DNA of 64,000 nt. It comes from an uncultured Methanosarcinales archaeon (GTDB lineage: Archaea; Halobacteriota; Methanosarcinia; Methanotrichales; Methanotrichaceae). The notes under the pieces were generated by a model. The model was given only the letters and a program-made list of their open reading frames with translations, searched no databases and was not told the DNA's origin. The stretch spans positions 192,001-256,000 of the forward strand of contig CAWJKV010000003.1 of NCBI GenBank assembly GCA_963843555.1, read 5' to 3'. Position numbers and translations under genes: made by a program. Positions within the stretch are counted from its first letter, which is position 1, and each line of letters opens with the position of its first letter. Shown here piece by piece: positions 27,843 to 32,173 of this stretch.

Positions 27843-29101
27843 ATGAAGAAATGTTTCATAGCTTTAGCCTTAGCTATATTCTTGTATGGATTGATGACTC
27901 CAGCCCTGAGCATCAGTTTGAGCTATAATGCCGAAAATAATGGTAAGATAGTCTCATCATCCTCCACCTATATGCTCGATAAATCTACATCACTAAAGGA
28001 GTCAGCCATTTTGGGAGATGGCAAGATCGCAAGGGACCTTACTGCTAGCGGATCAGGAAACAACCGCATATTAATCGCATCCAGCGCAAGCGGAAGGGTG
28101 CAGACACCAAGATGGAAGGCTCTGGAGACTTCAGGACTGCAGCCTCGGTGGGTGCATTTGATGACGGTGTCTTGATAAGTCAAGATACAGCTATTTCCGG
28201 CAGCCATGGCGACCTAACCTATCACGCTGATTCTCCAGAGAATGGGGCGGAAATTCGACAGGCTTTGATGGCGAGGGCGACCTGAAGGCAGGCATCTTTG
28301 CAGTAGCGGGAGAAAATGCTGAAATATCTGGCAATATTAAAGCTCTTGGAATAGAGATGCTCGATAGCGAACTCATGCACGCATTAGCTTCAGGCGACGT
28401 TGACATGTCCGTCGATGGACTATATATCCAGCCCAATGGCGACCTAGGGAATTTTGGCCTGAGCGCCGCAAATACCAAGAAGGGAAAAGTTGGCGGCGAT
28501 ACTTCCGGCCTTCCTTACAGGCCCAGATTACAGTGATGATGGAGGGAATGCCAATGCATATGCCTTCACTGGCACCAAGTGGACCACAAGAGATCCCAAG
28601 CTAAAGTGGGTCTTGAAGAATGATGCAAATATGGCAGCAGAGGGTCTAAGCGAAAGTGAGGTGCAGAGTCTCATGATATCAGTTGCTAACACTTGGGATG
28701 ATGCCTCAAACCAGAATCTCTTCGCAGATAGCAGCTTGGTAACGTTGAATCCCAACGTGAAAGCCGACAGTTTCGATAGATACAATCCCGTTAATACCAT
28801 TAATTGGATGTATTCGCCAAGCGTTTGTCTGGCCTATACGAGAACCTGGTCTAAGTATGGCAGTGCTATTGATTCCGATATCGTGTTTAATACGAAATAT
28901 GGCTGGGACACGAACGGAATAACCGGTCTTGATGTTCAATCGATAGCATTGCACGAAATGGGACACACGCTCGGCTTGGACGATCTATACGGTAAACCCG
29001 TGTTCAAGAGCGATACCCGCCAGGTGATGCATTACTACACAGGCATCAAGCGCACACTCGGAAACGGCGACTTGAAGGGTATCTGGAACCTCTACCAATG
29101 A
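27843..29101 (+). CDS. Secreted matrixin-like protease, copy 3 (frameshifted)
   Basis: MKKCFIALALA signal peptide; HEMGHTLGLDD; VMHYYTGIKRTLGNGD. Confidence 0.82.
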
Positions 29102-29187
29102 GCTGGATGGCTCAGACAGCCATCACTTATTTTCTAATTTCTAAAACCTCTTCGATTCCGGACTCATACATGGAGCATGAGAAACCT

Positions 29188-29372
29188 GATTGCCTGAACA
29201 GCCTTAATATGGTTGATATGGGCAGTGAAGGCTGTTTCATTTTTGGGACTGCGATCCTGTATTTAAAACTAGCCATCTGAACCGCTCGCATACATGGATG
29301 CGTCTTTGAACGCGTATGGGAAAATGTCCCTACGAGGGTTTTAGCATCTGCCCATATCAGGCCAGGTAATAA
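29188..29372 (+). ncRNA. Candidate IS110 bridge/seek RNA
   Basis: Non-coding left end; perfect 12-bp stem 29214-29225/29348-29359; internal matches to both element junctions. Confidence 0.55.
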
Positions 29373-29377
29373 TATGA

Positions 29378-30624
29378 CTGGAGCAAAGGAATAAAGTTTG
29401 CGGAGTTGATATCCACAAGAAATTTCTCATTGCTACGATTCTCTCCCGAGACGGAACCAAGATACAGAAGCGATATAGTACAGATATCGATGATCTATTG
29501 AATTTTAGAGACTGGGTTATCAAAGAAAACTGCGATTGCGTGGCTATTGAGTCAACTGGTGTCTATTGGTATCCAGTGAATGCCGTTCTAGAAAAAAGAG
29601 TCAAGCTGATATTGGCCAATGCTCATCAGATCAAGCATACTCCCGGCAGAAAGACAGATTCCATAGATTCTGAATGGATTGCGGAGCTTGCTCTTAACAA
29701 TCTGATTGATCCATCACGAATATTTCCGAAAGAAGATCGAGATCTTAGAAGACTGACCCGGACAAGAGAGAGTCTGGTCAAGATCAGATCTCAGATGAAG
29801 AATCAAGTTCATCAAGGACTGGAATCGTGTAGCATAAAAGCTCTCTTCGGTTCTTTCTGATAATTTTGGCAAATCGGGGAGATACATTCTGGATGGTCTG
29901 ATCAATGGAGAGAACATCGATGAGGTCATTGCTGGAATTCCCTCAAAGAGAGTTAGAAATAACGGCGATCAAATTCGGACGGCAATTAAGACGGGTCTAG
30001 ACCAAATCCAGGTATTTCTTATTCGATCTCATTTAGACACTATTGACTGCTTAACAAAGAAGCTTGACGAAATAGATCTCGAGATAAAGCAAAGGATCTC
30101 AGGAAGAAAGAACGATTTACAGATTGCTATGTCTGTACCGGGAATAGGATTTACAGCAGCTACGACAATTCTTGCGGAGATAGGGAATTACAGGGACTTT
30201 AGTACGCCAGATAAACTTGCCTCGTGGTGTGGAATAGTTCCCAGTGTGTACCAATCTGCAGATAAGCTTCTCACCGGAAGTATCACGAAGCAAGGTTCAA
30301 AGCATATTCGTCGGATACTGGTTCAAGTTGCTCACGCTGCAGCCAAGAAGAGGGGGTCGAAGCTCAGGAAATTCTTCCTAAGGGTAAAAGCCAAGAAAAG
30401 GATATAACGTGGCAGTCGTGGCTTTAGCCAGAAAGATACTCTGTATTTTGCATCATCTCCTTATGAACCAAGAATTGTATCAAGAAGACGGAGTGGAGAA
30501 ATCAAGTCAACAAAGATCGATTGGTCTTCCGCGACGAATGATAAGATGAGCTCTGAAGACCATGATTGAGATTATTGCCAAAGCTGGTTACGAGGTGAGG
30601 AAGATTGAACGAAATGGGGGTTAA
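29378..30624 (+). CDS. IS110 family DEDD recombinase/transposase (frameshifted)
   Basis: CGVDIHK, AIESTGVYW, PGRKTD..D..WIA; C-terminal SVPGIG...ILAEIG...F...LASWCG.VP...QS...ITKQG, VALARK. Confidence 0.93.
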
Positions 30625-30801
30625 GCCCCCCATTCTTGATTTTGGGAGGTTTCTCATGGGAAATGATGTGACCAAAGGCTTCCAGAGAACACTATCTGCA
30701 CTTATGATGAAAATTCAGCAAAAGCTATATGTATCAACAATCTAAAAGGGACTGGCAGGAGGGTGGAATAGATCAGAGCAAGGTTCATTTATCTCTTCAT
30801 A

Positions 30802-31632
30802 TTGATACTGGCGATCCTGGCTCAGGCAGAGGGAAAAGTCGGCTATAGCATCTCTGTTACCGTAAATGATAGTAATGCCAGCACCTCCTGGGGGAGGAGT
30901 CATTTTACTTCCGTGTTTGACTTCAACTCAGAAAGCCACACCAAGGGAGATGGAAACTCAACCCAATATACGAAAATAAGCGGATTGACAGGCGTGAGTT
31001 TGCTGGAAACCACCCACACCAAAGAAGGTAGACTCAAAGAAGATAAGCGTCTGTCAGCGATAAGTTCTGTGAATTCCATAGCCATTGATGAGTCTGTATC
31101 GAACAATGCAGAAAAATACAGCGTTACAATAAATGAAAGCATGCCATCTTATTTAATTAGCGTAAGCGAAGTTCAATATAGGGGAGAAGGAATTAATAAA
31201 AGGAGCAACTATATAAATAATGACGATGAAATAATGACCCGCTATCAGGCAAAGAAGTTCTCTGAATCAACCGCCTTCCTGGCAAAATATCGAAATGCGC
31301 TCATAGTTGCGGATGTAACCCCGAACGAAATCGTCGAATTCATAGGGGAGAATTACAGCACCGCGCTGCAGACGTCTTCGAATTCGGATATGTACTCCGG
31401 ATTCAAAATAAGATCCTCCAATGAATTCATCGAGCAGGATTACTTTGGCCAATTCAAAATAGATAGACGCATCGAAAAGTCTCATAGCTATGCAAAACAG
31501 GAACCGGATGATCTTGAGGATCTGCTGGATTGCTGCCCGTCAGAATATGCCAGTTTAGACTATTCCCTGCAGGCTGCAAGGCTATGCTTGTGTCGTTCGG
31601 CTCTATCCGGATTGGATAATGGCATGAAATGA
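30802..31632 (+). CDS. Secreted beta-rich hypothetical protein with a C-terminal CCP motif (true start slightly upstream)
   Basis: Hydrophobic leader ending in AEG; paralogous to 5346-6293. Confidence 0.78.
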   Translation: MILAILAQAEGKVGYSISVTVNDSNASTSWGRSHFTSVFDFNSESHTKGDGNSTQYTKISGLTGVSLLETTHTKEGRLKEDKRLSAISSVNSIAIDESVSNNAEKYSVTINESMPSYLISVSEVQYRGEGINKRSNYINNDDEIMTRYQAKKFSESTAFLAKYRNALIVADVTPNEIVEFIGENYSTALQTSSNSDMYSGFKIRSSNEFIEQDYFGQFKIDRRIEKSHSYAKQEPDDLEDLLDCCPSEYASLDYSLQAARLCLCRSALSGLDNGMK

Positions 31633-31648
31633 AATGGGTGAGTTAAAA

Positions 31649-32173
31649 ATGAGAAAATGTATCTTGGCAATAATGGCGCTATTATCAATAGCGGCCATAG
31701 GAATGATGAATGCGACTGCCATATCGCCTGATAGTGAAGGCGTGTCTGCCGGAGATGCGAGTGATCCGCTCCTAAAAACGCTGCAAGCCGGAGTGAATGA
31801 TACGGCTGAAGGTCAATCAGAATTGAGAGTCTGGAACAGCTTCATTGAGAACTTTGACTATCAGGGTGTGATTCTTAATGAGACTTTGCAGGGCAATATG
31901 ACATATGAAGAGGCCATGGTTGCAACCACAGCGCTCCTCGTTCTTAATTCCCAATCTGTCGCCGATGCGCAGAGTATTACTCCAGACGAAAAGTACACAG
32001 ATTTCCTTAGCTCCACGATCAATGCCATGAAATATTTCAATATATATCTCTACAATATGGCTAAGCTATTCGAAACGAGGGATGGGAGATACTCTGCTGT
32101 CGGTAGAGAAGCGTTTAATCGAAGCATGCAGTACTATGAAGCAGGAAAGAGCGAAGCTGAATTTATCTACTGA
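31649..32173 (+). CDS. Secreted, probably helical, hypothetical protein
   Basis: Signal peptide; 174-aa ORF in an operon with the previous gene. Confidence 0.75.
   Translation: MRKCILAIMALLSIAAIGMMNATAISPDSEGVSAGDASDPLLKTLQAGVNDTAEGQSELRVWNSFIENFDYQGVILNETLQGNMTYEEAMVATTALLVLNSQSVADAQSITPDEKYTDFLSSTINAMKYFNIYLYNMAKLFETRDGRYSAVGREAFNRSMQYYEAGKSEAEFIY

What the first reader, a model, noticed from the sequence alone, without database searches (positions are those of the whole stretch)
29165..30670. Archaeal IS110 whose 5' non-coding end carries guide-like copies of its own junctions (candidate bridge RNA)
Seen: a non-coding left end of about 190 nt closed by a perfect 12-bp stem. CATACATGGA (29289-29298) is identical to the left junction (29165-29174), and ATGGGAAAATG (29316-29326) matches the right junction ATGGGAAATG (30656-30665) with one extra A. 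With ATG as the shared core, the excised circle has the 12-bp IRs 10 bp apart (GGAAATGGAG), and the empty target reads CTCATAC-ATG-ATGTG. Established: IS110 recombinases use a bispecific RNA for target and donor; subterminal IRs typify the IS1111 group, whose non-coding end is usually 3'. Inference: IRs combined with a 5' RNA, and both putative guides only 17 nt apart, suggest a variant guide architecture.
Basis: partly seen in the sequence, partly recalled or inferred. Interest (0 to 1): 0.76.

Follow-up and report, generated by a model that had tools for sequence, protein, structure and literature searches.

The report
Decayed archaeal IS110 with bridge RNA
This is a worn-out copy of an RNA-guided jumping gene in a methane-producing archaeon; its guide-RNA region carries short copies of the element's own two ends, and a whole archaeal clade shares this layout, which differs in one respect from the textbook bridge RNA.

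Summary
The element is an IS110-family insertion sequence with a structured RNA gene in its 5' non-coding end. The boundaries and the "ATG core" are wrong. Relatives, an uninterrupted target in a sister family, and a 97%-like copy at another site place the ends at about 29142-29146 and 30663, with an A-run as the shared core. CATACATGGA at 29165-29174 is therefore not a junction. It lies about 20 nt inside the left end and abuts the left inverted repeat.

The RNA has two internal loops. Loop 1 (29235-29244 and 29260-29269) carries the target guides, which covary with the flanks. G1 (29289-29298) copies the left-end internal site. G2 (29316-29326) copies the right-end tip plus core. Both covary with their DNA sites across many sequence classes and several archaeal families, so they are donor (self-end) guides.

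The layout is a hybrid: 5' RNA as in IS110, guide order and 12-bp subterminal repeats as in IS1111. Unusually, both donor guides read the same DNA strand. The window's transposase gene carries five frameshifts, so this copy is probably dead. I rate it a new variant of a known kind.

The parts
29132..29141 (+). Left flank (target left half, LT), ending ...TTTCT
   Evidence: No homology to relatives left of the A-run. Partly matched by the left target guide.
29142..29146 (+). Left copy of the core: A-run AAAA followed by C. The exact crossover within it is uncertain by a few nt.
   Evidence: An A-run lies at both boundaries in 4 of 4 full-length close elements. The sister family's uninterrupted target shows that LT plus core is target-derived.
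29142..30663 (+). Insertion sequence, about 1.52 kb, IS110 family; a decayed copy
   Evidence: Homology limits. Pfam PF01548 and PF02371.
29147..29164 (+). Left-end proximal spacer. In relatives it is a CATGA...TCATG palindrome; here it is degenerate.
   Evidence: DNA fold -0.3 kcal/mol here, against a mean of -3.76 over 25 distinct relatives, whose stems show compensatory changes.
29165..29174 (+). S1: internal left-end site CATACATGGA, copied by guide G1.
   Evidence: Identical to 29289-29298. Covaries with G1.
29176..29187 (+). IRL, left subterminal inverted repeat CATGAGAAACCT
   Evidence: Perfect 12-bp complement of 30647-30658.
29213..29360 (+). Bridge/seek-type RNA gene: outer stem 29213-29225 with 29348-29360, enclosing two internal-loop domains
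   Evidence: MFE -51.3 kcal/mol, z -3.29. 31 pairs, 94.9% of cells paired against 28-51% when slid, 7 pairs with changes on both sides. The covariance model R1 finds it in 11 of 151 sampled genomes of the phylum.
29235..29244 (+). Right target guide (RTG), 5' side of loop 1. It is the reverse complement of core plus right flank.
   Evidence: Here a 6-nt match (AAATGA). 9-nt contiguous matches in 6 of 24 relatives. It changes together with the flank in the X1 copy.
29245..29258 (+). Hairpin inside loop 1 (GGGA with TCCT)
   Evidence: Pairs with compensatory AU to GC changes in 6 sequences.
29260..29269 (+). Left target guide (LTG), 3' side of loop 1. It has the same sense as left flank plus core.
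   Evidence: Here a 6-nt contiguous match (TAAAAC). 8-11 nt in 20 of 30 elements.
29285..29288 (+). 5' arm of the loop-2 closing stem (CTCG); pairs with 29333-29336 (CGAG)
   Evidence: Helix 4 has 81% of cells paired and one pair with changes on both sides.
29289..29298 (+). G1: 5' side of loop 2, same sense as S1
   Evidence: At least 8 of 10 matches to the element's own left end at a fixed place in 29 of 30 elements and in 13 of 16 further model hits. Covariation diagonal.
29299..29314 (+). Conserved hairpin between G1 and G2 (TGCGT...ACGCG)
   Evidence: Stem nearly invariant in 30 of 30 sequences.
29316..29326 (+). G2 = left donor guide (LDG), 3' side of loop 2. Same sense as the right-end tip, the core and the first bases of the right flank.
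   Evidence: 7-11 nt contiguous match starting at the ATG of IRR in 20 of 25 elements. Covariation diagonal.
29374..30624 (+). Transposase pseudogene (IS110 family, DEDD plus Transposase_20 domains)
   Evidence: Pfam hits. Five single-base indels relative to the intact 415-aa ORFs of L005, L006 and L007. The same indel places differ in public contigs.
30647..30658 (+). IRR, right subterminal inverted repeat
30656..30663 (+). Right-end tip ATGGGAAA (left donor half plus core), read by G2
30664..30670 (+). Right flank (target right half, RT), TGATGTG
   Evidence: Homology to relatives ends at 30663.

Best explanation
Window 29142-30663 is a decayed copy of an IS110-family, RNA-guided insertion sequence that belongs to a clade spread through Methanothrix and other archaea of the same phylum.

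Its 5' non-coding end encodes a structured RNA of about 150 nt on the transposase strand, with two internal loops. Loop 1 is the target-binding loop. Its 5' side is complementary to the top strand of core plus right flank. Its 3' side has the sense of left flank plus core, so it would pair with the bottom strand. The core is a short A-run.

G2, on the 3' side, has the sense of the right-end tip just outside the right inverted repeat, plus the core. G1, on the 5' side, has the sense of a 9-10-nt site just outside the left inverted repeat. That site lies about 18-23 nt in from the crossover, beyond a small palindrome.

Shown here: the anatomy, the RNA structure, and the covariation of all four segments with their DNA partners. 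Inferred: the RNA is made, binds the transposase, and base-pairs with DNA as in IS621, ISEc11 and ISEc21.

Two further points. Both donor guides would pair with the same (bottom) strand. Their order in the RNA, G1 then G2, matches the order of the left and right ends in the integrated element. I therefore infer that loop 2 holds the two ends of the element together, with the palindrome bound by protein or looped out, rather than reading a compact circle junction on opposite strands. This particular copy is most likely immobile.
For: Family: Pfam PF01548 (E 1e-23) and PF02371 (E 4.8e-24) on the fragments. An intact relative scores 272 bits on NCBIfam NF033542, 'IS110 family RNA-guided transposase', cut-off 140.

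Ends: alignment of 5 elements from 5 genomes. Multi-copy relatives. Uninterrupted copies of the sister family's target read ...GTGAAAC directly followed by GGCGGCGGC. A copy in run X1 has different flanks.

RNA: z -3.29. 31 pairs, 94.9% paired against 28-51% slid, and G-U pairs that fit only this strand. Found beside 42 of 47 transposase hits by anchors, plus 3 more by the model. Found in 11 of 151 sampled genomes of the phylum, 9 of 63 genera.

Target loop: the longest common string of LTG with its own left junction is 8-11 nt in 20 of 30 elements, while only 3 of 608 cross-element controls reach 8. RTG reaches 9 nt in 6 of 24, while only 2 of 596 controls reach 8. The X1 copy changes RTG (29238, 29239) together with its right flank.

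Donor loop: G1 matches the element's own left end at 10/10 in 5 elements, 9/10 in 13, 8/10 in 11 and 7/10 in 1 of 30, always next to IRL. Reverse-complement matches reach only 6-8. Of 532 cross-controls, 63 reach 8 or more. G2 matches the right-end tip over 7-11 contiguous nt in 20 of 25 elements. The only covariation diagonals found are G1-S1 and G2-right end, both direct. Distant members with new S1 classes keep the rule in 13 of 16.

Literature: bridge-RNA loops with two guides each (PMC11208160, passages). Reversed guide order in IS1111 (PMC11187229, abstract and sections 9 and 12).
Against: No RNA evidence. The one RNA run laid covers only parts of the transposase gene, as contigs.

In the window copy the target guides match its flanks over only 6 nt each.

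One subfamily (L012, L014, L017, L019, L020, L021, L024) has a constant mismatch in the middle of G1 against S1.

Related elements are not independent, so the counts overstate the support. The number of independent two-sided changes is perhaps ten, not thirty.

The same-strand polarity of G1 has no counterpart in what I read about IS621. In one classical IS1111 member, IS4321, the only match to the left extension is a 6-nt antisense one. The mechanistic role of G1 is therefore inference only.

No guide complementary to the first bases of the left end was found that holds across families.
Confidence: 0.72

Rival explanations
1. The element runs from about 29170 to 30665 with ATG as core. CATACATGG in the non-coding region is a target (left-flank) guide and ATGGGAAAATG a donor guide. 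The circle has the inverted repeats 10 bp apart.
For: The strings match as stated. The spacing of S1 and the right-end tail next to the inverted repeats resembles the 7-bp and 3-bp terminal extensions of classical IS1111 (PMC11187229, introduction passage).
Against: Homology among 5 elements in different contexts extends about 20 nt further left, as it does in multi-copy relatives. L006 (ACA) and L004 (ACG) change the supposed core on the left, while L006's right junction has no such triplet (L004's right end lies beyond its contig). The right junctions of L005 and L007 lack ATG. The real flank-matching guides are in loop 1. The sister family's uninterrupted target fixes the crossover at the A-run.
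Confidence: 0.03
2. The S1/G1 identity is a relic of an old duplication of left-end sequence into the non-coding region and has no function. The RNA uses only the target loop and G2.
For: In one subfamily (group B) the RNA linker before G1 also resembles the left-end palindrome arm (CCATGATC). Identity rather than complementarity is what a duplication gives.
Against: Across 22 elements the RNA linker and the DNA spacer are no more alike than shuffles: mean score -5.09 against -5.15. Yet the 9-10-nt segment stays matched through more than ten different sequences, while neighbouring bases differ. Within the window's own family the two sides changed together twice (L004, L006).
Confidence: 0.07
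3. G1 is a real guide, but its job is regulatory. The transposase-RNA complex binds S1, just upstream of its own RNA and transposase genes, to control transcription. Alternatively, G1 pairs with an antisense transcript of the left end. It would not take part in strand exchange.
For: S1 lies inside the element in both the integrated and the circular form, upstream of the RNA gene. It is 18-23 nt away from the crossover. No antisense guide for the first left-end bases holds across families.
Against: G1 occupies the position in the loop that is a donor guide in known bridge RNAs. S1 abuts IRL in the same geometry as the G2 site abuts IRR: each begins at the ATG of a CATG repeat. That geometry points to end recognition. 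There are no expression data either way.
Confidence: 0.13

Closest known systems
IS621 and the IS110-group bridge RNA (Durrant et al. 2024, PMC11208160; passages of sections 6-7 and section 12 read)
   Same: DEDD plus Transposase_20 recombinase. RNA encoded in the left (5') non-coding end. Two internal loops, each with two guide segments around a hairpin, one loop for the target and one for the element's own ends. The core is included in the pairings.
   Different: The guide order in the target loop is reversed: the top-strand guide is 5'. There are 12-bp perfect subterminal repeats instead of 2-3 bp. The left extension is about 30 bp with a palindrome. The 5' donor guide has the sense of the DNA top strand at a distal site instead of being antisense to the first left-end bases. 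The core is an A-run rather than CT.
IS1111-family seekRNA elements ISEc11, ISPa11 and ISKpn4 (Siddiquee et al. 2024, PMC11187229; abstract, sections 6, 9 and 12, and passages read)
   Same: Subterminal inverted repeats of 11-13 bp. The top-strand-complementary target segment lies 5' of the bottom-strand one.
   Different: The RNA is upstream, not downstream, of the transposase gene. The transposase is 415 aa against 330-350. The terminal extensions are about 30 bp (left) and 2-5 bp (right) instead of 7 and 3. That paper notes a few exceptions with an upstream non-coding region or with sTIR inside the IS110 tree, but does not describe their guides in the parts I read.
ISEc21 (IS110 type with upstream seekRNA; same paper, section 12)
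   Same: Upstream non-coding region that gives the guide RNA. Site-specific insertion without duplication.
   Different: ISEc21 has the bottom-strand match 5' of the top-strand match, and no long sTIR.
IS4321 (classical IS1111 member, read here from plasmid record CP067915.1 as a control)
   Same: 12-bp perfect sTIR. The non-coding region has a 9-nt antisense match to the right flank and an 8-nt same-sense match to the right-end tip (ATAGATTC), which is the equivalent of G2.
   Different: The RNA region is downstream. There is no same-sense match of 6 nt or more between the non-coding region and the left end; the only match to the 7-bp left extension is a 6-nt antisense one. This is a single element, read quickly.

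Membership tests
IS110 family (sensu lato) | Recombinase with an N-terminal DEDD/RuvC-like domain (PF01548) and a C-terminal Transposase_20 domain (PF02371) | tested here: met
   both domains on the window fragments. NF033542 at 272 bits on the intact relative L005.
IS110 family (sensu lato) | Site-specific insertion without a target duplication beyond a short shared core | tested here: met
   only a short A-run (or AAAC in the sister family) is shared by the two junctions. The uninterrupted target was seen for the sister family only.
IS110 family (sensu lato) | Structured non-coding RNA in one end whose loops match target and donor | tested here: met
   by sequence and covariation. Expression was not tested.
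IS110 group (IS621-like) | Long non-coding end upstream of the recombinase gene | tested here: met
   232 nt lie between the left end and the ATG at 29374.
IS110 group (IS621-like) | [quoted passage not shown] | tested here: not met
   In loop 1 the order is reversed. In loop 2 both sides have top-strand sense.
IS110 group (IS621-like) | No subterminal inverted repeats, or only very short ones (2-3 bp) | tested here: not met
   12-bp perfect repeat. 8-12 bp in relatives.
IS1111 group | Subterminal inverted repeats of about 11-13 bp | tested here: met
IS1111 group | Terminal extensions of 7 (or 6) bp left and 3 bp right beyond the repeats (PMC11187229 introduction) | tested here: not met
   The left extension is about 30-34 bp and the right 2-5 bp.
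IS1111 group | Long non-coding end downstream of the transposase gene; transposase of 330-350 aa | tested here: not met
   The non-coding region is upstream. Intact relatives are 415 aa.
IS1111 group | The top-strand-complementary target segment lies 5' of the bottom-strand one in the RNA | tested here: met
   IS4321 control.
Active (autonomous) element | Intact transposase reading frame | tested here: not met
   Five single-base indels relative to three intact relatives. A local assembly error cannot be excluded.

The most novel reading that the evidence does not exclude
A widespread archaeal IS110 clade uses a bridge RNA in which three of the four guides (left target guide, G1 and G2) read one DNA strand and only one reads the other. 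The donor loop grips the two ends of the element at sites next to the subterminal repeats, across a hairpin-forming spacer, rather than reading a compact junction on opposite strands. That would imply a mechanistically distinct mode of donor recognition, for example synapsis of the ends of the integrated copy with transfer of a single strand.
Probability: 0.3. Interest if true: 0.8.

Novelty: new variant of a known kind. Interest (0 to 1): 0.6.

Why it matters
Bridge and seek RNAs are the newest class of programmable recombination guides. What I read describes two layouts, IS110-type and IS1111-type. This archaeal clade mixes features of both and adds a donor guide of unexpected polarity and position, together with a conserved left-end hairpin.

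If the pairing is real, donor recognition in this family is more varied than the IS621 model. It would also offer natural, covarying examples for working out how the ends of sTIR-bearing elements are recognised, a point the seekRNA authors flag as likely to differ between the groups (PMC11187229, section 6).

For genome annotation, the work gives corrected ends, a covariance model (R1) and a rule for predicting the target of each copy. For this window alone, the element is a dead copy in an intergenic region and is of little consequence.

Tried and rejected
1. Empty site for the window copy. The left flank was searched in 59 genomes of the genus. Only paralogues at 76% identity or less were found, and no uninterrupted site.

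2. Public runs. None held more than 29% of the sampled words. The four runs laid gave no joint across the element and no circle joint, and none covered the flanks. The RNA run X18 covered only parts of the transposase gene, as contigs, so nothing can be said about transcription of the RNA gene.

3. Rfam. No family matched at E up to 1 in 28000-32000 except a chance hit elsewhere. There was none at gathering score on four loci.

4. GAGGGTTTT (29337-29345) as an antisense guide for the first left-end bases. It fits L005 and L007 but is invariant while the left end varies, and it has no counterpart in the sister families. Rejected.

5. The idea that the RNA stretch from LTG to G1 is a full copy of the left junction. 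Linker against spacer similarity equals shuffles. Rejected, except in group B.

6. My first count of the loop-2 closing stem used columns off by one. It was redone.

7. Earlier notes of this scan: none for this genome.

8. A promoter scan was not run, because the tool covers sigma-70 promoters only.

Full report
**Observation.**
- CATACATGGA occurs twice in the 64-kb window, at 29165-29174 and 29289-29298. Chance expectation is 0.16 occurrences, and 1 of 100 shuffles reached two.
- The 12-bp inverted repeat (29176-29187 with 30647-30658) and the 12-bp stem (29214-29225 with 29349-29360) are perfect.
- The coding part is IS110 family: PF01548 on 29378-29854 and PF02371 on 29853-30404.
- The frame is broken. 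Against the intact 415-aa ORFs of three close relatives, the window has five single-base indels: +C at 29378, +A at 29836, +A at 30393, one base missing after 30506, and +C at 30551. Related copies in public contigs differ at the same places (table 4).
- About 76% of the window is covered by open frames of 150 aa or more. A generally error-ridden assembly is therefore unlikely and the copy is probably a pseudogene. A local assembly fault cannot be excluded.
- The genome, 82% complete, holds only this copy plus two weak remnants of the RNA region.

**Where the element ends.**
A protein search of 105 genomes of the same order found relatives in 56.
- Four are close, at 80-86% nucleotide identity: L004, L005, L006 and L007. 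Each lies in a different genome and context.
- Aligned with the window, homology begins at an A-run followed by CC (window 29142-29147). Homology ends at CATGGGAAA (window 30663).
- Multi-copy relatives in two genomes give the same picture. A conserved piece of 30-45 bp precedes the left inverted repeat, and only 2-7 bp follow the right one.
- Copy comparison cannot separate the element from a conserved target. I therefore searched the right-flank repeat of a sister family (L009) in three genomes. Uninterrupted copies read ...(A)GTGAAAC directly followed by GGCGGCGGC. This shows that the first 8 conserved bases of that family's apparent left end are target (left half plus core). The element proper starts after AAA(C).
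- A 1572-nt contig in run X1 carries a 97%-like copy of the window's element. It has other flanks and the same kind of left-end piece (tables 7 and 8).

The ATG-core model fails. L006 and L004 have ACA and ACG at the supposed left core. L006 has no such triplet at its right junction, and L004's right end lies beyond its contig. The right junctions of L005 and L007 have no ATG.

**The RNA.**
- The stretch 29212-29362 folds to -51.3 kcal/mol, z -3.29.
- An alignment of 30 distinct non-coding regions (A1) supports an outer stem, a closing stem and hairpin for loop 1, and a closing stem and invariant hairpin for loop 2. There are 31 pairs. 94.9% of cells are paired, against 28-51% when partners are slid. 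Seven pairs changed on both sides.
- Frequent G-U pairs fit only the transposase strand.
- Anchor motifs found this RNA next to 42 of 47 transposase hits.
- The covariance model R1 added three more. It found the RNA in 11 of 151 sampled genomes of the phylum, in 9 of 63 genera.
- Rfam 15 has no matching family.

**Loop 1 reads the target.**
- The 3' side of loop 1 (window 29260-29269) has the sense of the left flank plus A-run. The 5' side (29235-29244) is the reverse complement of A-run plus right flank.
- The longest common string between the left guide and its own left junction is 8-11 nt in 20 of 30 elements. Only 3 of 608 cross-element controls reach 8.
- The right guide reaches 9 nt in 6 of 24 elements. 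Only 2 of 596 controls reach 8.
- In the sister family the two guides together spell the uninterrupted repeat seen.
- The X1 copy differs from the window at 29238 and 29239 (right guide) and at 29260, 29262 and 29265 (left guide). Its new right guide fits its new right flank. This is natural retargeting within one element species.
- In the window copy itself each guide matches only 6 nt (TAAAAC and AAATGA).
- The order, top-strand guide 5' and bottom-strand guide 3', is the one reported for IS1111-type seekRNAs. It is the reverse of ISEc21 and IS621 (PMC11187229 abstract, sections 9 and 12; PMC11208160 passages).

- G2 (29316-29326) has the sense of the right-end tip. The match starts at the ATG of the right inverted repeat and runs through the core, often 1-4 nt into the flank. 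It is 7-11 nt contiguous in 20 of 25 elements. The five misses lack a right end in the stretch searched.
- G1 (29289-29298) has the sense of S1, a site that ends 1-3 nt before the left inverted repeat. Matches to the element's own left end are 10/10 in 5 elements, 9/10 in 13, 8/10 in 11 and 7/10 in 1 of 30. They are always at the same place, and reverse-complement matches reach only 6-8.
- The first base is usually the mismatch, so the matched unit is 9 nt.
- One subfamily keeps a constant internal mismatch (GCCAGAA against GCCCGAA).
- A scan of every RNA column against every anchored DNA position gave only two diagonals: G1-S1 (four positions, 0.93-0.97 identity, n=29) and G2-right end (two positions, 0.95-1.0, n=20). 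Both are same-sense.
- In the window's own family the two sides changed together in L004 (ACACGG) and L006 (ACACAG).
- Thirteen of 16 further model hits, from other families of the phylum and with new S1 sequences, keep the rule. The other three are one hit with 7/10 and two remnants.
- Identity, not complementarity, between two segments of one strand cannot be an RNA helix. In a family known to use guide RNAs, pairing of the RNA with the opposite DNA strand is the economical reading.

**What is unusual.**
- In IS621 the 5' guide of each loop pairs with the bottom strand left of the core, and the 3' guide with the top strand right of it.
- Here G2 behaves as a left donor guide. G1, however, is not antisense to the first left-end bases. 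It has top-strand sense and lies 18-23 nt from the crossover.
- The spacer between them is a CATGA...TCATG palindrome whose 3' arm ends in the first bases of S1. Twelve of 25 distinct spacers fold at -3 kcal/mol or better as DNA, and their stems differ by compensatory changes. The window's spacer is degenerate at -0.3.
- S1 follows a CATG repeat in the same way as the G2 site follows the CATG of the right inverted repeat. The left end therefore contains a second, junction-like unit.
- The RNA order LTG, G1, hairpin, G2 is colinear with left flank, S1, body and right-end tip of the integrated element. All three of these guides would pair with the bottom strand.
- From this I infer that loop 2 grips both ends of the element. 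Whether this serves excision, insertion from a circle with the palindrome looped out, or regulation is open.
- One classical IS1111 member, IS4321, served as a control. It has an antisense right-flank guide and a same-sense right-end guide like G2. It has no same-sense match of 6 nt or more to its left end, only a 6-nt antisense one.

**Comparison and novelty.**
The element is a member of the IS110 family by its protein. It fits neither subgroup.
- IS1111-like: 12-bp subterminal repeats and IS1111 guide order.
- IS110-like: an upstream RNA and a 415-aa transposase.
- Like neither: a left extension of about 30 bp, against the 7 bp of classical IS1111.

The seekRNA paper mentions exceptions of this general sort, namely sTIR elements in a deep IS110 branch and upstream non-coding regions. 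In the parts I read (section 6) it does not describe their guides.

Three full-text searches gave no paper on guide architecture in archaeal IS110. One preprint counts 662 archaeal IS110 recombinases but does not treat their RNAs (passages). I saw only listings or abstracts of the 2025-2026 preprints on excision and half-match recombination. Supplements of the key papers were not opened and may hold relevant structures.

**Verdict.**
The specific copy is dead. At clade level the RNA layout is a new variant of a known kind.

Noticed in passing
G000:C5:195669-195734 (L002 1500-1635) and G000:C7:178803-178904 (L085 1501-1602): Two degenerate remnants of the same RNA region lie in the window's own genome with no transposase gene next to them. 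They score 27.8 and 29.5 bits with model R1.
   Followed up: partly
L059-L083 (G077, G035, G074), e.g. L063, L072, L074: The sister family's target is a repeat beginning (A)GTGAAAC followed by GGCGGCGGC and a GC-rich hairpin. G077 gave 20 matches. No Rfam family matches. Its nature is unknown.
   Followed up: partly
L012, L014 left and right junctions: Some subfamilies are inserted at TTTATAAAA followed by TATCA-like sequence, which resembles an archaeal TATA box. A host promoter would then sit about 20 nt upstream of S1.
   Followed up: no
window 28490-29101 and G000:C3:217122-219429: The gene left of the element is a matrixin-like zinc protease (PF00413, HEMGH motif). It has two tandem paralogues upstream, at 69-76% nucleotide identity.
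   Followed up: no
window 30616-30631: A GC-rich hairpin (GGGGG TTAA G CCCCC) overlaps the transposase stop codon and is conserved in L005-L007. It may be a terminator or a structural element.
   Followed up: no
L046, L047, L050, L051, L053 (G035): Of the 8 full copies of one subfamily, four (L047, L050, L051, L053) share near-identical flanks on both sides and L046 shares the left flank only, so these copies sit inside a larger repeated unit. The other copies have a conserved right flank, GAGTCACAGAG, which that subfamily's right target guide matches over 8 nt.
   Followed up: partly
L014 154-249: A second, partial copy of the RNA region (73% identity to window 29218-29315) lies close to the full element in that contig.
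   Followed up: no
run X1 contig laid on window 29159-30663: A 97%-like copy from a sediment metagenome lies at a different site and has altered target guides. Contigs of a peat metatranscriptome run (X18) cover parts of a 95-99%-like transposase gene.
   Followed up: partly
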